Source of the DNA: an uncultured Candidatus Saccharibacteria bacterium
GTDB taxonomy: Bacteria; Patescibacteriota; Minisyncoccia; Phycocordibacterales; UBA9973
Reading direction: 5' to 3'
NCBI GenBank assembly: GCA_964544225.1
Contig: CAZIZK010000004.1
Location: 883-64,882 of the forward strand
Length of the DNA: 64,000 nt
Under the pieces are notes generated by a model, which saw nothing but the letters and a program-made list of their open reading frames with translations, was not told where the DNA came from and searched no databases. Below are positions 30,005 through 54,605 of the stretch, piece after piece. The position numbers and the translations under genes were made by a program. The number at the start of each line of letters is the position of its first letter. The first letter of the stretch is position 1.

Positions 30005-30925
30005 TTATATCTTCTTTGGAAACAGGATAGATAAGACAATAGACGAAACAAGAGCAAACATTATAATACCCAGAGATAGTACAGAAGATAGGTGTATACC
30101 AAATATTCCAGCTACCATCTTGAGCCCTATAAATATCAGTATAAAAGCAAGGCCTTTCTGTAAATGATGGAACTTGTGCAAGACATTTTCAATCAGGAAG
30201 AACAATGCTCGCAAGCCCATAATAGCAAATATGTTGGATGTAAATACTACGAACATATTCTGAGAGATACTGAATACGGCTGGGATAGAGTCCACTGCAA
30301 AGATAATATCGGTAGCCTCTACCAGAAGAACGATCATAAATAGTGATGTAAAGTAAAATTTACCATTTTGCCTTACAAAGAACTTGCCACCATGATGAGA
30401 GTCGGTAAATGGCAGTATCTTGTGTGCAAATTTTACAACCTTGTTTTTCTTGAAGTCGATATGTTCCTCTTTCTTATTACTTAGCAATTTGATACCAGTA
30501 TATAGCAACAATGCGCCGAATACGTACAATATCCAGTGGAACTGGCTGATCACATACGCCCCTACTCCTATGAACAATGCGCGGAATATTATCGCCCCGA
30601 TAATACCCCAAAACAGGGCTTTGTGATGATACTTCTCCTCCAAGTTAAAGTAGCTAAATATCAGCAATATAACGAACAAGTTGTCTACTGACAACATCTT
30701 TTCAGTTATATATGCACTGAAGAATTCAACACCAGTATTCTTGTCTATAAAGAAGAATATGAGTGCCCCAAAAACCAAGGATATCCCTATCCAAAATAGT
30801 GACTGGTAAAGTGCAGGCTTGAACGCTATCTTGTGGCTCTTTTTATTAAAGAATCCGAGGTCAGCAACCAGGAACCCTACAACAATAACGCCAAATAATA
30901 CCCAGAGACTCGTTTGTGCTTCCAT
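30005..30925 (-). CDS. TerC family integral membrane protein
   Basis: MLSVDNLFVILLIF and downstream hydrophobic repeats. Confidence 0.7.
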   Translation of the reverse strand: MEAQTSLWVLFGVIVVGFLVADLGFFNKKSHKIAFKPALYQSLFWIGISLVFGALIFFFIDKNTGVEFFSAYITEKMLSVDNLFVILLIFSYFNLEEKYHHKALFWGIIGAIIFRALFIGVGAYVISQFHWILYVFGALLLYTGIKLLSNKKEEHIDFKKNKVVKFAHKILPFTDSHHGGKFFVRQNGKFYFTSLFMIVLLVEATDIIFAVDSIPAVFSISQNMFVVFTSNIFAIMGLRALFFLIENVLHKFHHLQKGLAFILIFIGLKMVAGIFGIHLSSVLSLGIIMFALVSSIVLSILFPKKI

Positions 30926-31028
30926 ATAATGTTTATAATATATTATTTAATATAGATTATATACTAACAGATAATTAAAATAAACCAAAACTCATTCTAA
31001 TATGGTTTGTTGTCTCGACAATAATATA

Positions 31029-31826
31029 TTAAATCTTTAATGTTGCTATAAATCCTTTATGATCACTCACCCCTTCGAGGACCTCAAAACTTTCTACCAC
31101 CACATCAGAGCTGGTCATTATAGTATCTACCATTAGTTGCAAGTTTGGATTTCTGTGTAATTTTGGATCAATACTAGAAATTAAATCTTTCGGAACAATA
31201 TCTATCAATTCTTCGGCCAAAGCATCATATATTTGTTCCCCGCGTGGATTATTTAAATCTGAAGTGAAAATAATAGGATTATTTATCCCCTTAATTAAAG
31301 CAAGCATTCTGTCAAAATACCCAGATAATATTAGAAATTCTTTTACATATTCAGGATCTTTTTGAAAATGATTCTCCTCCCCTGGTAAATTATGATCGAT
31401 GACAGGAAAATGTGCAGTACAGATATTTACATTTTTAGTACCAACTTGAACATTTATTACAACAAGTGGTGCAAAAAAGCTGAATCTTTCTTTTAATCTT
31501 TTACCGTATGTTGAATCTAAATATTCTTTATTAAAAATGGGTAGTTCTTCTAATCCATTACCATCATAACGCAATATATCTTTTGAATTAATTTTTAGCC
31601 TTGAAAGGATCGCTGGACCCTCTTTGTCGATCAAATCACCATCTTTTATACCCAGCATTGGCGCAAAAATTAATTCATACCCTGCATCTTTTGCCAACTT
31701 TTCTATCTCATTTTGCATAGCTTCCTCGAAGCATGCGATGTCTGGCTGAATTTCTTGTAGCAACTTTCGGACTGCGTCGAGATGTTTATTACCTTCTATA
31801 TTTAAATGTAGAATTTTTAAACTCAT
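31029..31826 (-). CDS. endonuclease/exonuclease/phosphatase (EEP) family protein
   Basis: MSLKILHLNIEG, CFEEA, TAHF, SDHKG catalytic motifs. Confidence 0.65.
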   Translation of the reverse strand: MSLKILHLNIEGNKHLDAVRKLLQEIQPDIACFEEAMQNEIEKLAKDAGYELIFAPMLGIKDGDLIDKEGPAILSRLKINSKDILRYDGNGLEELPIFNKEYLDSTYGKRLKERFSFFAPLVVINVQVGTKNVNICTAHFPVIDHNLPGEENHFQKDPEYVKEFLILSGYFDRMLALIKGINNPIIFTSDLNNPRGEQIYDALAEELIDIVPKDLISSIDPKLHRNPNLQLMVDTIMTSSDVVVESFEVLEGVSDHKGFIATLKI

Positions 31827-31855
31827 TAATATTGATATTCTATCATATTCTTTAG

Positions 31856-32077
31856 TTAAGTATGTATAGTCAGTAACTTACTCGGGCTATGGTGGCCATT
31901 GAATATCTTTACCTTGTTTATAGGTACTTTGTACAGTTCAGCTACTATCTCAATTACTTTCTTATTGGCCATGTTCCTTTCCGCCTTCTCCTTTATCTTT
32001 ATTTCATACCTATTGTCCCCTACTTCTTTTACAGATTCGGTTCTGGCCCCTGCTGTTACTTTTACCTTTACATACAT
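31856..32077 (-). CDS. DUF167 (YggU/UPF0235) family protein
   Basis: MYVKVKVTAGARTESV...ANKKVIEIVAELYKVPINKVKIFNGHHSPSKLLTI. Confidence 0.55.
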   Translation of the reverse strand: MYVKVKVTAGARTESVKEVGDNRYEIKIKEKAERNMANKKVIEIVAELYKVPINKVKIFNGHHSPSKLLTIHT

Positions 32078-32079
32078 AA

Positions 32080-32628
32080 TTATTTAAAGATTACTGAGCC
32101 ACTGTCATACTTCAACAGCAATACCATCTCGCCTTTTGATGTGAACATGAATCCGTCTGTCTGATCCAACATTTTACTAAACTCCTGTTCTTGGGAACCT
32201 TCGCAATACATCAGTGTTGACATCATCTTCGTAAGAGTTATTTTATTATCCACCACCTTATACTCGCCACCCACACCATTACAGTCAGTAGTAGCCGAGA
32301 AGGTCTTGTCCTTCTTGAAAGTTATAGTAAACTTCTTTGCTACCTTTGGTGTTACCACCTTGCCATCACTATATATTGTATTGATCCATGTCCAGGTCTG
32401 CATAGATAACGTCATACGTGCAGGGTCGGCCTCGCCTTCGAAGTCTTTTACTATTATAGGCTCGGGTTCTTTTGTTACATTTTTAATACCAACATTTTCT
32501 TCTACCTCTCCAACCTGAATATTTTGATTCTCTGACAGAGTATCGGTTTGATTAAAGTTCGTCTTATAAATACCAAAGCCAATAATTATCAGAGCCACAA
32601 TTCCTAAAGATATGTATGTTTTTTTCAT
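32080..32628 (-). CDS. META/HslJ-like domain protein (membrane-anchored)
   Basis: N-terminal TM. ...KKFTITFKKDKTFSATTDCNGVGGEYKVVDNKITLTKMMSTLMYCEG META-domain pattern. Confidence 0.6.
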   Translation of the reverse strand: MKKTYISLGIVALIIIGFGIYKTNFNQTDTLSENQNIQVGEVEENVGIKNVTKEPEPIIVKDFEGEADPARMTLSMQTWTWINTIYSDGKVVTPKVAKKFTITFKKDKTFSATTDCNGVGGEYKVVDNKITLTKMMSTLMYCEGSQEQEFSKMLDQTDGFMFTSKGEMVLLLKYDSGSVIFK

Positions 32629-32708
32629 ATACTAAGTATACACTATGTAAAATAAAAAAATAACTACACTTGTGGTGTAGCTATTTATCAAAATTTATTT
32701 GTTTTATC

Positions 32709-33086
32709 CTATTCCAAATAAGACTTGAGCAGATCAATCTCTGCTTGTGGTAATTTGTGGATAGGTCCATCGCCGAAAATGAAGTGGTCTTTATTGTAAA
32801 AGAAATCTACCGGATAACCTAGGGATTTTATATCTTTTAAAAATCCAGGAGATACCGACATTGCCACAATTTTTGCATTAGGATTTGTTCTCTTTACCCA
32901 GCTTAGATCCATATCTCCGTCCAATATTACTTGTCCAGAAATAAAATAGAGGTCAAAGTAAGATAGTGGTAAGATTTCTGTATTTTCACCACTGAACACT
33001 TTGACTTCGTCACCATAGACCCCCTTTAAGATATCTACAATTTGCTCTGTGTAGAAGCTATCTTTTACGAAAACTCTTTTTGTCAT
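32709..33086 (-). CDS. hypothetical protein
   Basis: 125 aa ORF, no motif. Confidence 0.35.
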   Translation of the reverse strand: MTKRVFVKDSFYTEQIVDILKGVYGDEVKVFSGENTEILPLSYFDLYFISGQVILDGDMDLSWVKRTNPNAKIVAMSVSPGFLKDIKSLGYPVDFFYNKDHFIFGDGPIHKLPQAEIDLLKSYLE

Positions 33087-33206
33087 AATAATAGGTTTTA
33101 TTTGTTTCTTTCACATTACCTTATTTGAAGAATAAGTCAAATTGAACATATACGAACCTATTTACAAATAGGTATAAATGTATTATAATAAAAGAAAAAA
33201 ATAATA

Positions 33207-33611
33207 ATGACACGTAATTTTATACCTAAAAACCGTGGGATCGTTGTTTTAAAACGACACCTACCAATGATAACAATACCTGCTATGATAGGAATTGTTA
33301 TTGTATTATTGTGGAGATTTATAATATTTCCTTTGGATTGGAATTTTACAAATCTTTCTGACCCAGTGCTATTTATTGCCCTACCTCTTGCTTGCTTAAT
33401 ATATGTGCTTTTTGCAACTATCGCAATTAGTTCTGTATTTCAGCAATACAAAGAGGTTTCAAAAAGTGTTATATTGTTGTTGGAATTGTCAACCGGGTCT
33501 TTTGTGCAAGATGCAAGAAACGAAATAAACGCTGCACATGAGAACAGCATGATGGTGAGGGTGATTTTTTTGTTCATTTTTATTTTTGTTAGTGTTAATT
33601 TTATCTTTTAG
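33207..33611 (+). CDS. hypothetical small membrane protein (uncertain)
   Basis: 134 aa, 3 hydrophobic segments, AT-rich codon usage; overlaps the next minus-strand gene. Confidence 0.25.
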   Translation: MTRNFIPKNRGIVVLKRHLPMITIPAMIGIVIVLLWRFIIFPLDWNFTNLSDPVLFIALPLACLIYVLFATIAISSVFQQYKEVSKSVILLLELSTGSFVQDARNEINAAHENSMMVRVIFLFIFIFVSVNFIF

Positions 33612-34542
33612 GGTTGCTTTGTCTGTTTTCGCTGATGGTAACAACCCCCCGATCGGTTTCTTTTTTGGTTCGTACCAAAGAACCTTCTTGATCATATTCA
33701 TACAAGGTTGCGTAATTGTTTTCATCAAGAACAGCAGTCAGTTTAAGGCTCACAGGATCATATATATAGCTTTTCATACTCCCGTTTACTGGGTATATGC
33801 GAATGTCATCAAAATAAGCTGTTCCACTTCCACTAAGCAATTCCACAGTAATATCGGTGGCACCAGAAGGAATTGTAAATTCTTCGTATATGCGCTGCCA
33901 GCCTTCAATAATCTTACCTTTACCATAGTAGGGCGCAGGGTCGGTAACTGGGCCAGTGTAATCTATTTGTATTGTTGCATTATAATACCCCGTCGCTGTA
34001 TCAGGTGCACTTGCCTCTTTTATCCATGCACTGATGGCATAGGTAGCACCAATATCAGGGACAAACCCACCTATACAATTTTCGCAATCAAATGTAGGCA
34101 TAAAACACGGGGCAGGTGCTTCAATTTCCTCGGTTTGGATGCATAGGGCTCTTGCCGTACTTATATAATCATCTGCATACAAACTTATTGTTATAGTGTG
34201 CATAAGCCCGTCAGCAGGTAAATTATTTAAACGGAATGTAAACGTAGCAATAATGGTGTGACCTATATATTCACTTAAGTCCACAGGCATGGTATCCCAG
34301 TCCATGAATTTAATGCCACTTTCAGGTTCTACATATTGGAATTTAGAACTTCCATAAATTGGATCTTTATTGTCTGCATATACACGGTACCGGTGTGTGA
34401 GGTACTTCCTGTTACTGACGTTCCATGTGGTCTGTAAGCGCAGAGCATCAGAAATAATTAGATTTACTCGACCTAACGAGACACAAAGACATACGGCTAT
34501 AAAAGAACCTTTAGGTGGAATTATTAAAGCTGCAATTAACAC
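33601..34542 (-). CDS. beta-sandwich (carbohydrate-binding-like) domain protein ending in a YD (RHS-type) repeat; possibly a truncated remnant
   Basis: GKGKIIEGWQRIYEEFTIPSGATDITVELLSGSGTAYFDDIRIYP then SYIYDPVSLKLTAVLDENNYATLYEYDQEGSLVRTKKETDRG (Y-x-YD-x-x-G-x-L). No signal peptide. The N-terminal 60 codons overlap a plus-strand ORF, so the true start is probably internal (MDWDTMP...). Confidence 0.35.
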   Translation of the reverse strand: MLIAALIIPPKGSFIAVCLCVSLGRVNLIISDALRLQTTWNVSNRKYLTHRYRVYADNKDPIYGSSKFQYVEPESGIKFMDWDTMPVDLSEYIGHTIIATFTFRLNNLPADGLMHTITISLYADDYISTARALCIQTEEIEAPAPCFMPTFDCENCIGGFVPDIGATYAISAWIKEASAPDTATGYYNATIQIDYTGPVTDPAPYYGKGKIIEGWQRIYEEFTIPSGATDITVELLSGSGTAYFDDIRIYPVNGSMKSYIYDPVSLKLTAVLDENNYATLYEYDQEGSLVRTKKETDRGVVTISENRQSNPKR

Positions 34543-34671
34543 ATTTAAACAGCTGAATGAAAATAATATAACACCTGGGAAATCTTTTGATTGGTGGGAG
34601 TTACTTGGAGAAACAGCAAAAGGGGCTGCGATAGGAGGAGGTGCAGGACTTGTGTTGGGTGCAGTTGAGGA

Positions 34672-35988
34672 TTATGAAAATTCACAGCAAAATCCTATAA
34701 ATACTGATGCTTTTTTATTTGCAGTAATAAATGATATAAGGTTAGATAAAAATGACCCTGAATTTAAATGGTTGGATAATAAAGCACACCGATTACCCTT
34801 ACTTCGTAAAGAATAAATTGAATAATCTCCTTTATAAAACTGTAGGTCTTGACTGCTCCTCTTATATTTTTCAATTAAGTTAGAATCTTCAATGTATCTT
34901 TGTTCTTGGGTAAAAAATTCATAAAAATGTGTCCTACTACTGTTTATATCTTTTCTTTTAAAAAGATTATTTACGACGTATTCATCTTTTAAATCAGATG
35001 GCTTATATTTTTTATTTGTAAGAAATTTATCCTTAATGTTACTTACTAAATTAGGATCTTGAATTGTTTCAATTTGGTAAAGGATCATTCGGCCAGCTAC
35101 AGGCATGTGGTTAAATGCTGGATTTGTTCCAGCATAAATTCCTTTTAAATATTTATCTGTTTGAACTTTTCTTTTACTTATGTCAAATACAAATAAAAAC
35201 TCATCTTTCTTATTTTGTGGTGGATTAAAGTATAGTGAAATAGAGTCTTGATTATTTCTTTTAATTTTACCATCATAATAATTATTTTCAGATTTATTGG
35301 AATTTTCAATTCCCGTTGTGCGCATGAATACATGTTTGTCGGTATTAATTAATAGGTAAAGCCGAGAAATGCTACCACTTTTAGCTTCTTCTTTTGGTCT
35401 AATAAAATACCCTTCATATATGCCATAAAAATGTGGTGGTATTTCGAGATTATTGATAGGCTGATTATCGGTGTTATTTTCTTGATTATTTGGACTCTTC
35501 TGAGCACTAGTTTCCTTTTGATTATTTAGTTCTAATTGTGCACTTTTTAGAGGATCTTCTAGAGAATTTATAAAATCTCTAAAAGCCTTCATAATATCTT
35601 TAACTTGGCAAATTTCACTAAAAATAATATATGCATTGACATAATGTTCTGGTATTGTATGATTGTTTCTGTTATTATATGGATTGCCTTTTTTGGAACG
35701 AATTGGTTTGATATTGTCGGAATATTGTTTGTGGTTGAAGACTATTTTGTCAGTTTGCTTGTCAAATCTTAAGTCCTGATCTAAATAGGCTTTTACATTT
35801 GTATCTTCTTGCATTTTTTTACTAAGAGAATTTGAGCCATAATTTCCGTAAATGTCTGTATCCTTATAATCTGTTGCTAAAAGTCCAGTTATTTTTTCCC
35901 ATTTTTTAATTACGGCAATATGTATAAATTCAGCAACTTTGGGATGAAGTTTTATCTGTAAACTTTTTAACTTTTTACTTGCACTCAT
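34672..35988 (-). CDS. hypothetical Asn/Lys-rich protein (orphan, AT-rich)
   Basis: 438 aa intact ORF, strongly AT-skewed codons, no recognisable motif. Confidence 0.4.
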   Translation of the reverse strand: MSASKKLKSLQIKLHPKVAEFIHIAVIKKWEKITGLLATDYKDTDIYGNYGSNSLSKKMQEDTNVKAYLDQDLRFDKQTDKIVFNHKQYSDNIKPIRSKKGNPYNNRNNHTIPEHYVNAYIIFSEICQVKDIMKAFRDFINSLEDPLKSAQLELNNQKETSAQKSPNNQENNTDNQPINNLEIPPHFYGIYEGYFIRPKEEAKSGSISRLYLLINTDKHVFMRTTGIENSNKSENNYYDGKIKRNNQDSISLYFNPPQNKKDEFLFVFDISKRKVQTDKYLKGIYAGTNPAFNHMPVAGRMILYQIETIQDPNLVSNIKDKFLTNKKYKPSDLKDEYVVNNLFKRKDINSSRTHFYEFFTQEQRYIEDSNLIEKYKRSSQDLQFYKGDYSIYSLRSKGNRCALLSNHLNSGSFLSNLISFITANKKASVFIGFCCEFS

Positions 35989-37363
35989 ATTGTACTAAAT
36001 AAATCTTTAAAATATCCTCAATATTTTTTAAAGATATTTTGAGGATTAATACTGCGAGATTAAGTAATCTTTAAGAAATAAAATAAGGAGAAGAACTTTT
36101 GTGAATAAGTTGTATATAATTGTTATTTGAGGTAAATCTTCTATAGCTTTGTATCATGCGCAATAACATTCATATATTAAGAGTTTTGCAAATCTTCAAA
36201 ATTGGATGTGATCAAATAATATTTTCAAAGTTATCCGTGAGTTTTTTTATTCATGCTACTGGCTTTCAAAGGTACACAGATTATGTATCGTTCATTAATT
36301 TCGATTTTGCCTTAACATTAGGCAGATTTACAAATAATTCTGGCAGATCTCCACCATAAAAAATGGGCATAGACTTGGTTAAAAGGCTACACCCACTTAA
36401 AATTTTTAATTATCCCAGTAAGGATTATTGATTTTAAGAACAAATGTTATAAATGTTCATCTAATATCATAGCATTTTTGGATTTATTTTTACAAGTTTT
36501 TTGCCCAAAAGTCGCGTATTGTTAGCTATAATGCAACAGTGTGGCGGGTTTGTCAATTTTATTTCCCAGAAAAATTGATGTGATTCTGTACTACTTATTA
36601 ACAAGTTAATAGATACGACATGACAAACATTTACATCAAATTCTTGTTCGCTTTTGTAGCTATCTTTCCCACGGCAAGTCACCTGGAGGTAATTTGCAAG
36701 AGTTTCTCGGAAAACATTATTGAACTATGTGCTCTTTCATTACTTTTTATTGTAATTCTAATATTTATAATATTCTATCAAGTTGGATATTATAAATGTG
36801 GTAAGGACTTAAAAATGAGATATCATATAATTCACTGGTTTATTTTCCTTTTATCAATATTTTCTTTAAAGTATATTTGTAAAAACCAATAATGAAGATA
36901 AATAAGATTTATTACTTTCAGGAATGTCTTAACATAATTAATAGAATTTCTCACACAATAGCGGCGGTTTGAAAGATATAGCATCTGTTTTACCGAGGGT
37001 TTGTGCTTCTGATTTTCCTTGCAAATGGTTAGATGCAATGTGCCCATCCAACTCTGGGATGGAGAAGGATGGGATTTGATATTCTTTAAGTTGGTTTTTC
37101 ATGTTATTTTCTGGTTTTAAGTTTGTTTAAATAGTTACGGCAGCCTTCCATTTGTAAATCGTCCATATTGGGGTGAATCCAAGATAATTCATCAATAATC
37201 ACTGAAATTATTAACGGATTACGGAGTGATTTTCGACCACCAAAGGCCGAAATCAGGCGTTTTAAATTTGAAATAAACGGGGTAATCTTTTTGTTTTTCA
37301 TGGCATTTGTTTTAGGTTAACAAATGCCCCAAACGAGTCTAGATAGCCTAGTAACTCAGGGTA

Positions 37364-37391
37364 TTGACATTATATCCCTTTTGTGTATAAT
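37364..37391 (+). promoter_or_regulatory. near-consensus sigma70 promoter TTGACA-16-TATAAT with no ORF downstream
   Basis: gtaTTGACAttatatcccttttgtgTATAATgta. Confidence 0.55.
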
Positions 37392-37397
37392 GTATCT

Positions 37398-37509
37398 GAG
37401 TTTGAGTTCTTTACAAGCAATTTGGGTTGTTTTCCGACGTAGCCAGATTGCATTGTTTTTCAATCTCTTTTAAGGCTCCCATGACTTCTGTCATGGGGCT
37501 TTTATTTTG
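37398..37509 (+). ncRNA. candidate small RNA (about 110 nt) from promoter 37364 to intrinsic terminator 37474-37509
   Basis: No ORF >25 codons. Terminator aaGGCTCCCATGACttctgTCATGGGGCttttatttt (11-bp stem with one G-U). Confidence 0.4.
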
Positions 37510-37791
37510 GCTTTTGTGCCTCATTTAAAGGTTGAAAATTTGGCTTTCCTTGGGCCGTTACTTTAGACACTTTTCTGCATTCCGCAGAAAGGTCAAGGGG
37601 CTGTTTTGAGTTAATTTTTCTGTAATTCATACAGACAAATCTCCATCATGACTTCTAATAACATCCACCAGTAGAATGACCATTTCCTCCAACAATTCCT
37701 CCATTATTTGAATTAATTAGTAATTTTATTGCTAAAACTTGGACTGAAAAGTATTTTTATCCTACTTTGCAAGAAAAATAAATCTAAAGCC

Positions 37792-38367
37792 ATGAATCGT
37801 ATTGATAAAATTTCATATGATGAATTATCAGCAATTAGGGCAGGGATAATTGAAGCATATTCATTAATCTCTAAAATGGAATTTAAGCCACCAGGCAGCA
37901 AGGATAACTTGGCTTATAAAAAACTAAAAGATGCAATTGAAGAAATAACAACTCATGAAATTTCTGAATCTAGTTTATTTGAATTGTTTTATGATGACAC
38001 AAAATCAGCTTTTCGGAGAATTAGATTAGATGCTTTTTATAAATTTATTTCAAGTCAGGTAAAACCTAGAAAAAGAGAAATAAATCAAGATGAAATAATT
38101 GCAATTGAAAAGTATTTCAATGAAAGATACAAACTGCTTATCAAATTGCCAGAAAGTGAATTAAATAGGGTATATCTAACACTTTTAGATATAGAGAAAC
38201 TTCAAAATTTTAAATTATTGTCTTATAAATTAGGAGACATAAAATGGGACAGAATTCTAGAAAGATTTAAAGCAAACAGTAAAATTATTTCAGGAATTCG
38301 CCTTACTGCAGATGCAATATACTTCCTGCCCTACCCCAACTGCGAGCAGAAGTCTTTTTTATTGTAA
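37792..38367 (+). CDS. hypothetical protein (orphan, AT-rich region)
   Basis: MNRIDKISYDELSAIRAG... 191 aa from the internal ATG; track ORF starts at 37729. Confidence 0.35.
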   Translation: MNRIDKISYDELSAIRAGIIEAYSLISKMEFKPPGSKDNLAYKKLKDAIEEITTHEISESSLFELFYDDTKSAFRRIRLDAFYKFISSQVKPRKREINQDEIIAIEKYFNERYKLLIKLPESELNRVYLTLLDIEKLQNFKLLSYKLGDIKWDRILERFKANSKIISGIRLTADAIYFLPYPNCEQKSFLL

Positions 38368-38549
38368 TGTTTACTGTTTCCCCAGCCTTAATCACAATTC
38401 TACCTGAATCTCCATGTATGTCTTTGCCGACATATGCTCTTATCTGATCGTTCCAGTCACTACAGATTGTATGAGTAAAAATAATTGGAACTAATGTTCC
38501 TCCTGAAAGAATGTCGGTTTTCTGAGCAAAAAGTTGAGTTGCACAGGTA
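38314..38549 (-). pseudogene. start-less ORF fragment adjacent to tRNA-Asn (possible gene remnant)
   Basis: Minus-strand frame SNTCATQLFAQKTDILSGGTLVPIIFTHTICSDWNDQIRAYVGKDIHGDSGRIVIKAGETVNITIKK... has no ATG/GTG/TTG start after the upstream stop. Confidence 0.2.
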
Positions 38550-38746
38550 TTGGATTACGTTATTTCTTTCTCAGCTTTGGTTAAAAGAATATCCGACTAT
38601 TTTAAAAATGCCTTAGATTCTGAAAAAAATCTAATTGTAATAAATGTGTTTTCCGAACTTTATTTAAAAGATGGAGAATTGGAATATGTAGCAAAAGATG
38701 GGATTGAAGCACTTTTAAAGCGATTTGACACTCAATATTCGCAATC

Positions 38747-38821
38747 TGGCTCCCCGGGTAGGGATCGAACCTACGACCTTAGAATTAACAGTTCTCTGCT
38801 CTGCCGCTGAGCTACCGGGGA
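38747..38821 (-). tRNA. tRNA-Asn (GTT)
   Basis: Minus strand: tccccggtagctcagcggcagagcagagaactGTTaattctaaggtcgtaggttcgatccctacccggggagcca. Acceptor UCCCCGG/CCGGGGA, anticodon loop cuGUUaa, encoded CCA. Track ORF 38550..38810 runs through it and is not credible at its 3' end. Confidence 0.85.
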
Positions 38822-38968
38822 ATATTTACCTACAAAACATGCTCTAAAAGAGCTTCTGTCATACTACCAAAAATGAGCCAAAAATGCAAAATGTCTGTTT
38901 ATATAACAAGGTAATAAAAAACTGTTCCAAGCATAGCCTGAAACAGTTCTCAAATCAAATTCTAAAAA

Positions 38969-40282
38969 TTACTTCCACATGATTACTTCATCCTTTCCCG
39001 GACCAACAGATATCATGTACAGCATGACACCCAATTCTTTGTAAATGTATTCGAAATACATAAACGCATTATGAGGTAAATCTTCATGACATGTACAGCC
39101 TTTTGTAGGGCCTTCATTACACCAACCATCGAAAGTCTTATATATTGGTTTAATATTGTCCGTTTCGCGAACCATATCAAAATCCAAAATATATTTCTCT
39201 TCATCGTTTAACTCATAATGAGTACATACTTTTATGTTTTCAAATGTTGGTATGTCTAAAATATCAGCTTTAACAATCACAAGGTCGGTAACACCATTTA
39301 TCATGCAGGCATAACGTAGTGCAGGTAGATCCAGCCATCCAGTAGAACGTGCGCGCCCTGTACGGGCACCAAATTCGTGTCCAGCTTGGCGGAGCTTTTC
39401 GTCCAACTCTTTATCAAGTTTTGTTGGAAAAGGTCCATTACCCACACGCGTAGTATAAGCCTTGGTCACACCGAACACTTTGCGTACACTTTGTGCAGGT
39501 ATTCCTAACTCGCCTGGTACAGCAGATGCTAAACATCGTGAAGATGTAGCAAATGGATATGTACCAAATTGGATATCAAGCATTGTAGCCTGAGCCCCTT
39601 CGGACAAAACATCTTTACCTTCGCCTAAAACTTCATTTACAAAGGCTGGTGTGTTTACACAATTGTCTTTGTAATTCTCTAGGATAAAATCTACGGCTTC
39701 AAAGAATTTATGAAGTGGATTATTGATTTCCTCTTCATAATTTATTTTATAACCAAACAACATTTCAGCATGCTTGATATGCTTTTCTACCAGAGCATGA
39801 ACTTTGTCAGAAAAATCTGGATAAAACATATCACCAACTCTTATACCAACGCGACCAGCTTTGTCACGATAAACAGGTCCTATACCTTGGCAGGTTGATC
39901 CGATAGCGTCTTTGCCTTTACTTGCTTCTTCGGCTTTGTCGAGCATGATATGTGAAGGTAGTATAAGGTGTGCACCTTTACCTAAAAAGAAATTCTTTTT
40001 AGTATTGGCGCCATATTTTTCTACCTTTGCAATTTCATCCACAAGTAAACTCGGGTTAACAACCATACCACAAGCTGAAAGCGACGGTATAGAAAAGATA
40101 GTACAAGGAATAGTGTTCAATACCACCTCATCACCACCTATATAAAGTGAGTGTCCAGCATTCGGTCCACCATGTGGCCGAACACCAAGTGCATAATTAG
40201 GGGCCAGACCGTGAACGATCTTTCCCTTTCCTTCGTCACCCCATTGTAGGCCAACGACAATATCTACGTGTCCTTTTTTCAT
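38969..40282 (-). CDS. purA: adenylosuccinate synthetase
   Basis: VVGLQWGDEGKGKIV, GHSL, GIGPVYRDK, TTRVGNGPFPTKL. Confidence 0.95.
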   Translation of the reverse strand: MKKGHVDIVVGLQWGDEGKGKIVHGLAPNYALGVRPHGGPNAGHSLYIGGDEVVLNTIPCTIFSIPSLSACGMVVNPSLLVDEIAKVEKYGANTKKNFFLGKGAHLILPSHIMLDKAEEASKGKDAIGSTCQGIGPVYRDKAGRVGIRVGDMFYPDFSDKVHALVEKHIKHAEMLFGYKINYEEEINNPLHKFFEAVDFILENYKDNCVNTPAFVNEVLGEGKDVLSEGAQATMLDIQFGTYPFATSSRCLASAVPGELGIPAQSVRKVFGVTKAYTTRVGNGPFPTKLDKELDEKLRQAGHEFGARTGRARSTGWLDLPALRYACMINGVTDLVIVKADILDIPTFENIKVCTHYELNDEEKYILDFDMVRETDNIKPIYKTFDGWCNEGPTKGCTCHEDLPHNAFMYFEYIYKELGVMLYMISVGPGKDEVIMWK

Positions 40283-51865: not shown

Positions 51866-52747
51866 ATGAAAGAGAATAATATAGAAAACTTCAAACAAAA
51901 CTCAAAATTTGAAGATTTGGAGACCAAAAAATCTAATGCAAAAATTAGTAATTTTTTAGGCAATTCTCTTGATAAACTTGATAAAATAGAGAAAAATATA
52001 GAAGATGGGCCATTAAAAAATAGACAAAAAATGGATATAAAGAAGCAGACAGGTAGAAATTTTATTGGGGTGGGGTCTAAATCAATAATTTTATCTGATT
52101 CCAAAGACAAAGTTATAGGATTAAATTATTATAATAAAGAATATAATGATAGACATTCTTATCAAAAACCTGAAAAAAATTACAAAGAATTAACAGAAGG
52201 AACATTTTTTCAAAAAAATAGATACTACTCAAACAAAATTCTTACAACTCTGTTCCCAAATAATTTTGCTAAACTTCACGCGACAACCGCAGGCATGAAC
52301 TTGTCAGAAAATGCTATACAAAGCGTAGAGCAGTCTCTTGGAGTTAAAATACCCAAAAATCTTTCTCCTTATAGTTTAGACAAACGTCAATTTATTCAAG
52401 AGCCAAAACTGTACGATAAAGCAAAATATTTAAAACCCAAAAGTAGGTTTATGGATATTGTAGACTTGCTAGGTAAAAAAATAGAATTTCAATATGATAG
52501 TACTCCAAGTAATGTAATAAAAAATCGTCAAGGTCACGAAGTCTACATAGACGATGCCCTTTTGGTAATAAAAAATCATGAAGACATTAACGAAATAGTA
52601 AATTTTATGAATTCTCAAAACGAAAAAACTCCTAGTATTTATTCAGACAAAGATATTGATATCGTTAAAAATTACGCAAATAGGATGAAGGAATTAAGTG
52701 AAGAATATAGCTCGATTATTGTAAACCAACTACCACCAAACAACTAA
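51866..52747 (+). CDS. hypothetical Lys/Asn-rich protein (orphan)
   Basis: 293 aa, AT-skewed, no motif. Confidence 0.35.
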   Translation: MKENNIENFKQNSKFEDLETKKSNAKISNFLGNSLDKLDKIEKNIEDGPLKNRQKMDIKKQTGRNFIGVGSKSIILSDSKDKVIGLNYYNKEYNDRHSYQKPEKNYKELTEGTFFQKNRYYSNKILTTLFPNNFAKLHATTAGMNLSENAIQSVEQSLGVKIPKNLSPYSLDKRQFIQEPKLYDKAKYLKPKSRFMDIVDLLGKKIEFQYDSTPSNVIKNRQGHEVYIDDALLVIKNHEDINEIVNFMNSQNEKTPSIYSDKDIDIVKNYANRMKELSEEYSSIIVNQLPPNN

Positions 52748-53532: not shown

Positions 53533-54534
53533 TTATTTTGGTTTAAGGATTATATAATTCAATTTTCTCTGAATTAAAATATCCTCTATAAAACTTCCTT
53601 GAATAGTGGAGTTACCTGATTTAAAATGATTAATACCTAAAATCAGAACCGAACTAATAGTATCTGGAAGAACTTTAACAATCGGAATGTTCCGATCAAA
53701 CCGTGTTACCTTTAAAAACCGTTCATCAATATACTTACCTGTTTTCAAAAACATTGCAAACCAACCATCTGGATTATCTGGATAAGTTTTTTTAATAGCA
53801 TTAAGTTCGGTTTTCATTGCATTCATCTCATCATCGTATGCATTATAGATTAACCGATCTTTAAACAATGGATTATTTGTTCGATTATCAATTTGAAAAA
53901 AATTATCAAATTTATCTCTGAATATCCTAAGTGCTGCTATTTGTTGGTTTCTATCTGTAATTTGAACATACTGATCCCTTGTAAGACGATAAGTGTACCG
54001 TAAACTAAAGATTGCATTTGTTTGCGCAACCTTTTTAAAATCTTCTACTCCGTAAATATTTATTGTTTTTAAATTTTCCAATAAATAGTATGTGAGTGAT
54101 GAGTACATGCTTTCATCAATCAGCCGACTAAACTTTTCTTTTGAATCGATACGGCCATCTTTAATAAGAAAACCTTCTGAATAGATAGGTAGTTTAATAA
54201 AGTGTTTTAAGGAATTCAGGATTTCTATTTGAATTTCTTTAACAATTGTCTTTTCAGACTCATTTAAAGCCTCAATGTTATCATCCATCAAATGGCGCTG
54301 CATGTAACAAATAACAAAAGGTCGGCCTGGAAAACTATTACAAGTATCCGCAATAATTACATCAGGGTCATTCTGGAGGTTTTTTATAACCTTACCAAAA
54401 GATGACATTTGTGATTTGGTGTACGGGGTATCAACAGAATTAGATTTAATACTAGTTTCTGTGATTTCTTCTTTTGTTCTGCTATTACAAGCAATAACAA
54501 TAAGGATTGTCGTGATCAGTAGGTGGTATTTCAT
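53533..54534 (-). CDS. putative lipoprotein, hypothetical
   Basis: MKYHLLITTILIVIAC lipobox-like signal, 333 aa, no motif. Confidence 0.35.
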   Translation of the reverse strand: MKYHLLITTILIVIACNSRTKEEITETSIKSNSVDTPYTKSQMSSFGKVIKNLQNDPDVIIADTCNSFPGRPFVICYMQRHLMDDNIEALNESEKTIVKEIQIEILNSLKHFIKLPIYSEGFLIKDGRIDSKEKFSRLIDESMYSSLTYYLLENLKTINIYGVEDFKKVAQTNAIFSLRYTYRLTRDQYVQITDRNQQIAALRIFRDKFDNFFQIDNRTNNPLFKDRLIYNAYDDEMNAMKTELNAIKKTYPDNPDGWFAMFLKTGKYIDERFLKVTRFDRNIPIVKVLPDTISSVLILGINHFKSGNSTIQGSFIEDILIQRKLNYIILKPK

Positions 54535-54605
54535 TTTTTTTGTTTTTTCATACATTACTACTAATTTTAACTTTTGTCAAATAGAACTCATTACTGATAT
54601 ACTAT

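What the first reader, a model, noticed from the sequence alone, without database searches (positions are those of the whole stretch)
33100..38821. AT-rich, gene-poor segment abutting the 3' end of tRNA-Asn: candidate degraded genomic island
From about 33.1 kb to the tRNA-Asn 3' end (38747), coding density and composition change. The segment contains:
- a small uncertain membrane ORF;
- a YD-repeat/beta-sandwich protein that looks C-terminally truncated;
- a 438-aa Asn/Lys-rich orphan;
- 1.7 kb (35989-37728) with no credible ORF, although the rest of the window is tightly packed;
- a 191-aa orphan;
- a start-less ORF fragment (38314-38549);
- a spurious ORF that reads through the tRNA.
tRNA 3' ends are classic integration sites, and the segment lies on the 3' side of the tRNA. 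No integrase and no clear direct repeat of the tRNA 3' end were found, so if it is an island it is old and decayed. Housekeeping genes (purA, guaB) resume immediately past the tRNA.
Basis: partly seen in the sequence, partly recalled or inferred. Interest (0 to 1): 0.55.

Follow-up and report, generated by a model that had tools for sequence, protein, structure and literature searches.

The report
Decayed foreign-DNA patch beside tRNA-Asn
The 5.6 kb next to the 3' end of tRNA-Asn in this small (Patescibacteria-type) genome is a graveyard of broken, horizontally acquired genes, an ordinary decayed genomic islet whose one unusual piece is a gene fragment from an unrelated bacterial phylum.

Summary
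Window 34.2-38.8 kb has the lowest GC of the 64 kb (0.307 against 0.391). It holds the longest ORF-free gap with no RNA gene to explain it (35989-37728), and it abuts the 3' end of tRNA-Asn (38747-38821, minus strand).

The content is a mosaic of relics:
- A Bacteroidota-type "YD-capped" beta-sandwich gene that keeps 263 of 706 residues. The first 38 codons of its downstream lipoprotein gene follow it.
- The 438-aa "orphan", which is the N-terminal ~60% of a rare ~650-aa family.
- A 65-aa ORF inside the "empty" 1.7 kb.

The only homologue whose genomic context I could read carries copies of both the 438-aa and the 65-aa gene next to a relaxase and coupling protein, on a mobilisable element.

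No integrase and no att repeat survive, and no empty site could be examined: relatives' contigs end at the island's edges. One relative carries an intact serine-recombinase element at the same side of its tRNA-Asn.

Verdict: a decayed, probably composite, tRNA-linked islet. It is a new member of a known kind and of modest interest.

The parts
38747..38821 (-). tRNA-Asn (GTT). Its 3' end at 38747 is the right-hand border of the segment.
   Evidence: ARAGORN. Rfam tRNA, 64.5 bits. The gene is conserved in relative L001, whose contig ends inside it.
38550..38746 (+). Gene fragment, GC 0.29. Its frame runs on into the tRNA; the listed ORF is 38550-38810. No family could be assigned.
   Evidence: ORF list. 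Codon score 0.106, GC 0.293. The only hit is a sub-threshold Imm3 match, E 0.04.
38314..38549 (-). Start-less open frame, GC 0.39, overlapping the 3' end of the 191-aa ORF. An unidentified gene fragment.
   Evidence: Six-frame translation. No Pfam hit. It is not a relic of the ~1900-aa operon protein (profile search).
37792..38367 (+). 191-aa ORF, GC 0.288, predicted all-helical. No homologue was found in any library I could still search. Its last ~20 codons run into the antisense of the neighbouring fragment, so it may be 3'-truncated.
   Evidence: No hit in Pfam, NCBIfam, PHROGs or PADLOC, in phages or plasmids or in IMG/VR. The AF2 single-sequence model is unusable, pLDDT 39.
37364..37512 (+). 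sRNA-like unit. It has a perfect TTGACA-16-TATAAT promoter (37364-37391), a ~110-nt strongly folding segment, and a hairpin plus U-run (37477-37508). It is divergent from the 65-aa ORF.
   Evidence: Promoter and terminator scan. Fold -42.1 kcal/mol, z -6.8, with 0 of 200 shuffles as stable. No Rfam match. No homologue found. Expression is not shown.
37302..37328 (.). Perfect 10-bp palindrome (GGCATTTGTT/AACAAATGCC, 7-nt spacer) immediately upstream of the 65-aa ORF's start. A possible operator.
   Evidence: the repeat finder I10.
37104..37301 (-). 65-aa ORF with a homologue (70 aa) in the mobilisable element L082. The 54-aa ORF follows it 1 nt downstream.
   Evidence: tblastn E 7e-9. blastp 39% identity over 44 aa, E 2e-12. 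No Pfam or PDB match.
36938..37102 (-). 54-aa ORF tightly coupled to the 65-aa ORF. No homologue found.
   Evidence: Codon score 0.135, GC 0.388.
35989..36937 (.). About 0.95 kb of AT-rich sequence (GC about 0.28-0.30) with only short, non-coding-like ORFs. An imperfect palindrome (35995-36043) lies just upstream of the 438-aa ORF.
   Evidence: No Rfam hit. No DNA similarity to phages or plasmids.
34672..35988 (-). 438-aa ORF, a C-terminally truncated member of the P0043 family. Homology ends at residue 398 (about 34795). The last 40 codons read antisense through another fragment.
   Evidence: blastp against P0043: 31% identity, residues 11-398 against 3-382 of 648. The family has 22 representatives, 570-690 aa when complete. 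The model shows that only the N-helical domain and the first of two beta-barrels are retained. GC 0.284.
34370..34816 (+). Glycine-zipper ORF fragment. Its only possible start is a TTG inside the antisense of the YD relic. Its 3' end abuts the truncation point of the 438-aa ORF.
   Evidence: Sub-threshold Gly-zipper_YMGG match, E 6e-5, 23 bits against a cut-off of 28.9. Reading of the sequence.
33604..34389 (-). Relic of a Bacteroidota-type "YD-capped" beta-sandwich gene; the listed ORF is 33601-34542. It retains residues 288-337 and 494-706 of the 706-aa homologue P0167.
   Evidence: tblastn 64-68% identity. Family alignment. Homologues sit in the operon ~1900 aa / this gene / ~240 aa / giant DUF6443 protein. 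GC 0.40.
33440..33577 (-). 45-codon relic of the lipoprotein gene that follows the YD gene in the donor-type operon. Only the signal peptide, the lipobox Cys and a few further residues remain.
   Evidence: It matches residues 1-38 of the L176 169-aa gene in the collinear position. E 0.22 against the whole window, 2e-4 against the 700-bp interval.
33207..33611 (+). 134-aa hydrophobic ORF of doubtful reality. Its 3' third is antisense to the lipoprotein relic.
   Evidence: Codon score 0.048, z -2.2. A gene caller called it on the independent contig L081.

Best explanation
The interval from about 33.2 kb to 38.75 kb is a decayed, composite patch of horizontally acquired DNA. It is lodged between a native gene (the 125-aa ORF next to META) and the 3' end of tRNA-Asn, in a Patescibacteria (Paceibacteria-like) chromosome.

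At least two sources are visible:
- **A GC-0.40 piece cut out of a diderm, Bacteroidota-type DUF6443/Rhs-like operon.** It now consists of an N-terminally truncated, internally deleted accessory gene plus the first 38 codons of the next gene.
- **A GC-0.28-0.30 piece related to the cargo or regulatory end of a mobilisable element.** It holds a truncated P0043-family gene and the 65-aa ORF with its partner, perhaps with an antisense-type small RNA.

The most likely history is arrival by site-specific integration next to the tRNA, perhaps through a serine recombinase, which leaves no long att repeat. Deletions and further insertions then removed the recombinase and the mobility genes and truncated the cargo.

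**Shown:** atypical composition and codon usage; the truncations; the foreign affinities of three pieces; the position at the tRNA 3' end.

**Inferred:** integration at the tRNA; the order of events; and that nothing here still provides a function, apart possibly from the small 65-aa/54-aa/sRNA block.
For: **Composition and coding.** The lowest-GC 4-kb windows and the largest unexplained ORF-free gap of the window are both here. All ORFs have atypical codon usage.

**Host identity.** TerC at 30005-30925 is 80-94% identical to proteins named Paceibacterota, Nomurabacteria or Minisyncoccia. The window carries gyrA, dnaE and secA.

**YD relic.** It keeps P0167 residues 288-337 and 494-706. Named family members are all Bacteroidota. 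The operon context includes OmpH and a giant DUF6443 protein. The collinear lipoprotein signal-peptide relic follows it.

**Truncated 438-aa ORF.** It aligns to P0043 residues 3-382 of 648. All complete family members are 570-690 aa. The model shows the second barrel and the C-terminal helical domain are missing.

**Link to a mobilisable element.** P0043 and the 65-aa homologue lie about 0.6 kb apart in L082, beside a MOBP-type relaxase, a VirD4-like coupling protein and DUF2958.

**Precedent in a relative.** L166 has a 6.4-kb element (large serine recombinase, restriction-modification genes, HTH_17) abutting the 3' end of its tRNA-Asn.

**Not a chimera on the left.** The left junction (125-aa gene / membrane ORF / YD 3' end) is reproduced at 100% identity in the separate Logan contig L081.

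**Absent from relatives examined.** None of the island ORFs occurs in the relatives' loci fetched around TerC or purA.
Against: - No recombinase gene or remnant was found, and no att-like repeat.
- No empty site could be examined. The nearest relatives' contigs stop inside the tRNA (L001) or 30 bp upstream of META (L169). More distant relatives have shuffled gene order.
- The mobile-element link rests on a single context, L082, of unknown taxon.
- The 191-aa ORF and the two fragments next to the tRNA, where an integrase would be expected, remain unidentified.
- Another low-GC patch at 51.5-54.6 kb shows that low GC alone is not diagnostic in this genome.
- The right-hand junction (fragment/tRNA) is not independently confirmed by a second assembly.
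Confidence: 0.68

Rival explanations
1. There was never a tRNA-targeted island. The interval is a recombination or deletion "junkyard" that collected unrelated scraps of environmental or host DNA by illegitimate recombination, for example after natural-competence uptake. Its position next to the tRNA is a coincidence.
For: GC is heterogeneous (0.40 against 0.28-0.29), and the fragments are unrelated and lie on both strands. There is no recombinase and no att repeat. Gene order in this clade is highly fluid. The Bacteroidota-type piece is cut at both ends and carries no mobility function.
Against: Two linked genes share homologues with a mobilisable element. A relative has a bona fide recombinase element at the same side of tRNA-Asn. 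The largest non-coding, low-GC tract of a 64-kb window lying exactly at a tRNA 3' end is what integration predicts.
Confidence: 0.2
2. The segment is native, fast-evolving, lineage-specific DNA (surface or accessory genes plus a long regulatory region). It looks foreign only because its relatives are poorly sampled.
For: The 191-aa ORF, the 134-aa ORF and the fragments have no detectable homologues. Patescibacteria genomes are rich in orphans. Two other low-GC Pfam-less genes sit among core genes at 51.9-54.6 kb.
Against: The YD piece is 64-68% identical to a gene in a diderm operon and is demonstrably a deletion derivative. The 438-aa ORF is truncated relative to every complete member of its family. 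The frames are start-less and overlapping.
Confidence: 0.07
3. Part of the segment (about 36.9-37.65 kb) is still functional. It would be a small selfish or regulatory cassette in which an antisense-type small RNA with a consensus promoter controls the adjacent 65-aa/54-aa operon, in the manner of a toxin-antitoxin or copy-control module. That would explain why it survived while the rest decayed.
For: A perfect sigma-70 consensus promoter and an intrinsic terminator bracket a segment folding at z -6.8. A 10-bp palindrome sits at the 65-aa ORF's start. The two ORFs are 1 nt apart. The 65-aa ORF is conserved in L082. The RNA contains UUGUUUUUCA, complementary to the start-codon region of the 65-aa mRNA (direct repeat D5).
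Against: No homologue of the RNA was found anywhere I could search, and L082 shows no obviously equivalent RNA. The codon scores of both small ORFs are poor. There is no family match and no expression data. This explanation is compatible with the best explanation rather than exclusive of it.
Confidence: 0.15
4. The segment is an assembly chimera that joins Patescibacteria and Bacteroidota reads.
For: The YD piece is Bacteroidota-like. Three related contigs break near the borders of the segment.
Against: The contig L081 reproduces 30266-33765, including the junction into the YD relic, at 100% identity. The foreign piece is only about 0.95 kb, is internally deleted, and is flanked on both sides by Patescibacteria-type genes. 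L001 is collinear up to the tRNA.
Confidence: 0.03

Closest known systems
tRNA-linked genomic islands and integrative mobilisable elements, including their decayed "islet" remnants
   Same: Position at the 3' side of a tRNA gene. Lower GC and atypical codon usage. Truncated cargo genes. Homologues of two genes next to a relaxase and coupling protein in another locus. A relative with an intact recombinase element at tRNA-Asn.
   Different: No integrase or recombinase, no att direct repeat, no mobility gene in the window itself, and no demonstrated empty site. The content looks composite, from at least two sources.
Bacteroidota DUF6443/Rhs-like giant-protein operons (~1900-aa protein, YD-capped beta-sandwich protein, ~240-aa protein, giant DUF6443 protein)
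   Same: The 33604-34389 relic is 64-68% identical to the accessory YD-capped protein of such an operon. It is followed, as there, by a lipoprotein gene start.
   Different: Only 37% of one accessory gene and 38 codons of the next survive. The ~1900-aa gene, the ~240-aa gene and the giant DUF6443 gene are absent. The host is a Patescibacteria-type genome, not a diderm.
Large-serine-recombinase integrative element at tRNA-Asn in relative L166
   Same: Same clade (TerC 91% identical), same side of the same tRNA species, similar size (about 6.4 kb against 5.6 kb). A serine recombinase would also explain the lack of long att repeats.
   Different: No shared genes (tblastn). The genomic neighbourhood of the tRNA differs. 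The window has no recombinase, restriction-modification or HTH_17 genes.
Antisense-RNA controlled cassettes of mobile elements (type I toxin-antitoxin, copy-number control RNAs)
   Same: A consensus promoter, a short highly structured RNA ending in an intrinsic terminator, and adjacent tiny ORFs.
   Different: No sequence or Rfam similarity to any known family. No hydrophobic toxin ORF inside or opposite the transcript. Function and expression are untested.

Membership tests
tRNA-linked genomic island / integrative element | Lies directly at the 3' end of a tRNA gene | tested here: met
   The tRNA-Asn 3' end is at 38747 and the foreign-looking sequence starts at 38746.
tRNA-linked genomic island / integrative element | Encodes an integrase or recombinase (tyrosine or serine), or a recognisable remnant of one | tested here: not met
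   No hit in Pfam, NCBIfam, PHROGs or PADLOC on any ORF or fragment. tblastn with the L166 serine recombinase found nothing in the segment.
tRNA-linked genomic island / integrative element | Bounded by a direct repeat of the tRNA 3' end (attL/attR) | tested here: not met
   No second copy of the 3' 15 or 25 nt within 3 mismatches anywhere in the window. No suitable repeat in 31-40 kb. Serine recombinases would not leave such a repeat.
tRNA-linked genomic island / integrative element | Composition and codon usage differ from the host chromosome | tested here: met
   GC 0.307 against 0.391, z about -2.8, for 4-kb windows. Codon-score z -1.5 to -4.2 for all ORFs. The YD relic and the 38.3-38.5 kb fragment have host-like GC.
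tRNA-linked genomic island / integrative element | Absent from the same site in close relatives (empty site) | tested here: inconclusive
   The L001 contig ends inside the tRNA and the L169 contig ends 30 bp upstream of META. More distant relatives have different gene order. None carries the island's ORFs.
tRNA-linked genomic island / integrative element | Carries mobility or mobile-element-associated genes | tested here: inconclusive
   The window has no relaxase, coupling-protein or transposase gene. Two of its ORFs have homologues beside a relaxase and a VirD4-like gene in the single locus L082.
Bacteroidota DUF6443/Rhs-like operon | Giant DUF6443-containing protein downstream of the YD-capped gene | tested here: not met
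   No ORF over 438 aa in the segment. tblastn with the giant proteins of L176, L083 and L084 found nothing.
Bacteroidota DUF6443/Rhs-like operon | Complete YD-capped beta-sandwich accessory protein with an N-terminal signal region | tested here: not met
   Only residues 288-337 and 494-706 of 706 are retained. The C-terminal YD cap is intact.
P0043 family (N-helical domain, two calycin-like barrels, C-helical domain) | Full architecture of about 570-690 aa | tested here: not met
   The window copy aligns to residues 3-382 only. The model places the second barrel at 371-500 and the C-terminal helical domain at 506-647.
Known small-RNA families (Rfam) | Covariance-model match to the 37396-37512 element | tested here: not met
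   The Rfam E-value scan of 33000-39000 returned only the tRNA.

The most novel reading that the evidence does not exclude
The GC-0.40 relic would be DNA that a Paceibacteria-like ultra-small bacterium captured from a Bacteroidota cell it lives on or beside. That would make the tRNA-Asn flank a physical record of the otherwise unknown host or partner association of this lineage. The neighbouring 65-aa/54-aa/sRNA block would be a still-active, undescribed antisense-RNA cassette left behind by a mobilisable element.
Probability: 0.15. Interest if true: 0.6.

Novelty: new member of a known kind. Interest (0 to 1): 0.3.

Why it matters
The finding mainly has annotation value:
- Several gene calls here (the 234/313-aa "YD" protein, the 438-aa protein, the ORF through the tRNA, and probably the 134-aa membrane ORF) are pseudogenes or artefacts. 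They should not be counted as Patescibacteria proteins or orphan families.
- It documents that tRNA-Asn flanks are insertion-prone in this clade.
- It gives one concrete case of cross-phylum DNA (a Bacteroidota-type operon fragment) fixed in a reduced Patescibacteria genome. If such relics prove recurrent, they could be mined as clues to the partners of uncultured ultra-small bacteria.

Tried and rejected
- **Empty-site comparison.** purA-based scans of GTDB genomes and JGI metagenomes gave only one close relative, L001 at 80%, cut inside the tRNA. Everything else was at most 49% identical. TerC-based retrieval gave many relatives, but with shuffled synteny or contig ends at the border.
- **att search.** No repeat of the tRNA 3' end. 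The same holds for the L166 element.
- **Integrase remnant.** None by any HMM library, nor by tblastn with the L166 recombinase.
- **Prophage or plasmid origin.** No DNA or protein similarity of the segment, the 438-aa, the 65-aa or the 191-aa ORFs to INPHARED phages, PLSDB plasmids or IMG/VR.
- **The 38314-38549 fragment as a relic of the ~1900-aa operon protein.** A profile of three homologues found nothing.
- **The 191-aa ORF as a relative of the gene downstream of P0043 or of the P0043 N-domain.** No similarity. Its single-sequence AF2 model was unusable, pLDDT 39.
- **Function of the P0043 family.** No Pfam hit and no significant PDB sequence match. Foldseek shows only generic lipocalin/avidin-like barrels.
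- **Homologues of the sRNA-like unit.** None in Rfam, in the 175 loci fetched by then, or in IMG/VR.
- **Taxon of L082.** Its relaxase and coupling protein are under 30% identical to any PLSDB entry.

Full report
**What the window is**

The 64-kb window is core chromosome. It carries gyrA, dnaE, secA, RNase HII, purA, guaB, RNase P RNA and tRNAs. Mean GC is about 0.39-0.40.

The TerC gene at 30005-30925 has dozens of homologues at 80-94% identity. Where named, their sources call them Candidatus Paceibacterota, Nomurabacteria, Minisyncoccia or Patescibacteria. I therefore treat the host as a Paceibacteria-like member of the Patescibacteria. This identification rests on names given by the sources, not on a phylogeny of my own.

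**Checking the observation**

- tRNA-Asn(GTT) lies at 38747-38821 on the minus strand, so the segment 33.1-38.75 kb is on its 3' side.
- The five lowest-GC 4-kb windows of the whole sequence all start between 34.2 and 35.0 kb: 0.307-0.312 against a mean of 0.391, sd 0.030.
- 35989-37728 is the longest stretch without an ORF of at least 100 aa. The next two such gaps are explained by RNase P RNA and a four-tRNA cluster.
- I built a codon log-likelihood score from 47 long ORFs of the window. It puts every ORF of the segment 1.5 to 4.2 sd below the host mean.
GC is host-like (0.40) across the YD gene at 33.5-34.5 kb. A second low-GC pair of genes exists at 51.9-54.6 kb.

**The YD-repeat gene (33601-34542, minus strand)**

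- The database search found 41 relatives. All named ones come from Bacteroidota: Hyunsoonleella, Fluviicola, Aquimarina, Aequorivita and Niastella.
- The alignment shows that the YEYDxEGxLxRxKKET motif is the normal C-terminal end of the family.
- The closest complete homologue is P0167, 706 aa. The window retains only residues 288-337 (34389-34240) and 494-706 (34239-33604), joined in frame. The N-terminal 287 residues and an internal 156 residues are gone.
- In four loci from three sources the family occupies the same operon position: a ~1900-aa protein, this gene, a ~240-aa protein (preceded by a small lipoprotein gene in L176), then a giant DUF6443-containing protein. L176 also has an OmpH gene upstream, which marks a diderm cell envelope. 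None of those partner genes is in the window.
- Immediately downstream of the relic, a 45-codon ORF (33440-33577, minus strand) encodes a lipoprotein signal peptide. It aligns with the first 38 residues of the lipoprotein gene that follows the YD gene in L176. The match is weak alone (E 0.22 window-wide). It becomes credible because it is in the collinear position and starts at the homologue's start.
- The 134-aa "membrane ORF" on the opposite strand overlaps this relic and has a poor codon score. I regard it as doubtful.
- This piece is not an assembly chimera. A separate Logan contig, L081, reproduces 30266-33765 at 100% identity, including the junction into the YD relic.

**The 438-aa "orphan" (34672-35988, minus strand)**

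- The word-indexed search found one homologue, P0043, 648 aa.
- An exhaustive profile search of 1.84 billion representatives found 22 family members. The complete ones are 570-690 aa.
- The window protein aligns to P0043 residues 3-382 and then diverges. Its last 40 codons read antisense through the 3' end of a glycine-zipper ORF fragment on the plus strand.
- An AlphaFold model of P0043 (pLDDT 78) shows four parts: an N-terminal helical domain, two lipocalin/avidin-like beta-barrels, and a C-terminal helical domain. The window copy keeps only the first two parts.
- No function could be assigned. There was no Pfam hit and no significant PDB sequence match.

**The link to a mobilisable element**

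- P0043's only retrievable context is L082. There it lies 0.6 kb from a 70-aa gene and next to a VirD4-like coupling protein, a MOBP-type relaxase and a DUF2958 gene.
- The 70-aa gene is homologous to the 65-aa ORF at 37104-37301, inside the supposedly empty 1.7 kb (tblastn E 7e-9; blastp E 2e-12).
- Two unrelated gene families are thus linked in two loci, one of which is a mobilisable element. This is the best evidence that the low-GC part of the segment derives from such an element.
- It remains a single context, of unknown taxon.

**The rest of the 1.7 kb**

- The 65-aa ORF is followed 1 nt later by a 54-aa ORF. It is preceded by a perfect 10-bp palindrome.
- Divergent from it is a perfect TTGACA-16-TATAAT promoter at 37364-37391, then a segment that folds at -42.1 kcal/mol (z -6.8), ending in a hairpin and U-run.
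- This looks like a small-RNA gene. However, it has no Rfam match and no homologue in anything I could search. It remains a candidate.
- 35989-36937 shows nothing but AT-rich sequence and an imperfect palindrome upstream of the 438-aa ORF.

**Between 37.8 kb and the tRNA**

- The 191-aa ORF (GC 0.288) has no detectable relative in the libraries still open to me.
- Its 3' end overlaps a start-less minus-strand frame (38314-38549, GC 0.39). A plus-strand fragment (38550-38746, GC 0.29) follows and runs into the tRNA.
- None of these resembles an integrase.

**Comparative evidence**

- L001 has purA 80% identical and is collinear with 38.8-51 kb at about 80% nucleotide identity. Its contig ends in the middle of tRNA-Asn.
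- L169 has TerC 94% and META 89% identical. Its contig ends 30 bp upstream of META.
- Both flanks are therefore conserved in relatives, but the interval itself is never assembled. This is suggestive of variability, not proof.
- More distant relatives have rearranged neighbourhoods and none of the island's ORFs.
- In L166 (TerC 91%), a 6.4-kb element abuts the 3' end of tRNA-Asn. It carries a large serine recombinase, a SacI-like endonuclease, a DNA methylase and an HTH_17 protein, and has no att-like repeat.
- In L168 the 3' side of tRNA-Asn is followed within 65 bp by an ordinary gene.
- tRNA-Asn flanks are thus variably occupied in this clade. A serine recombinase would explain why no direct repeat is found.

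**Interpretation**

- The segment is best read as a decayed, composite islet of foreign DNA at the tRNA-Asn 3' flank. I give 0.68 to the decayed-foreign-DNA reading as a whole.
- My own estimate for the narrower claim, that it entered by site-specific integration at the tRNA, is about 0.4.
- The main rival is piecemeal accumulation of scraps without any integrase. It is favoured by the GC heterogeneity and by the both-ends-cut Bacteroidota-type fragment.
- A native origin and an assembly chimera are both unlikely.
- The only part that might still work is the small 65-aa/54-aa/sRNA block.

**Novelty and interest**

- Decayed tRNA-linked islets are commonplace, so this is a new member of a known kind and scores low to moderate.
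- The less ordinary aspect is a fragment of a Bacteroidota-type DUF6443/Rhs-like operon fixed in a Patescibacteria-type genome.
- If that reflects DNA taken from a physical partner, it would be a useful clue to the lineage's unknown host. The present data show only the cross-phylum affinity, not the ecological link.

Noticed in passing
window 37364-37512 (+): A perfect sigma-70 consensus promoter (TTGACA-16-TATAAT) is followed by a ~110-nt segment that folds at z -6.8 and ends in an intrinsic-terminator hairpin. It is an unannotated sRNA candidate with no Rfam match.
   Followed up: partly
window 51866-52747 (+) and 53533-54555 (-): Two Pfam-less genes with GC 0.283 and 0.305 and low codon scores flank RNase HII. 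They form a second compositionally atypical patch in an otherwise core region.
   Followed up: no
L166 639-7150: In a relative (365-kb JGI contig), a ~6.4-kb element abuts the 3' end of tRNA-Asn. It carries a large serine recombinase, a SacI-like restriction enzyme, a C5 DNA methylase and an HTH_17 protein. The recombinase ORF call overlaps the tRNA by 42 nt.
   Followed up: partly
L166 14896-16220: purA in this relative is called as two ORFs (209 and 225 aa), each matching one half of the window's purA at 53-57% identity. This could be a pseudogene or a frameshift.
   Followed up: no
window 38969-40282 (-): Apart from one relative (L001, 80%), the nearest purA sequences found by the pattern-based scans of genomes and metagenomes are Chitinophagaceae and other Bacteroidota at 44-49% identity. 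This may indicate an old cross-phylum origin of purA, or it may be a search bias.
   Followed up: no
L083, L084/L085, L176/L177: A conserved, apparently undescribed Bacteroidota-type operon: a ~1900-aa protein, a YD-capped beta-sandwich protein, a ~240-aa protein and a giant DUF6443 protein. No paper in the searchable library mentions DUF6443.
   Followed up: partly
L082 9958-12547: P0043 and the 202-aa gene after it form a low-GC patch (0.33 against about 0.42) inside the mobilisable element, as cargo or defence genes often do. The family has only 22 representatives among 1.84 billion proteins and a double calycin-barrel fold.
   Followed up: partly
window 38860-38969 (-): The spacer between the purA stop and tRNA-Asn folds strongly on the minus strand (z about -5). 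This is probably the purA terminator or a tRNA leader.
   Followed up: no
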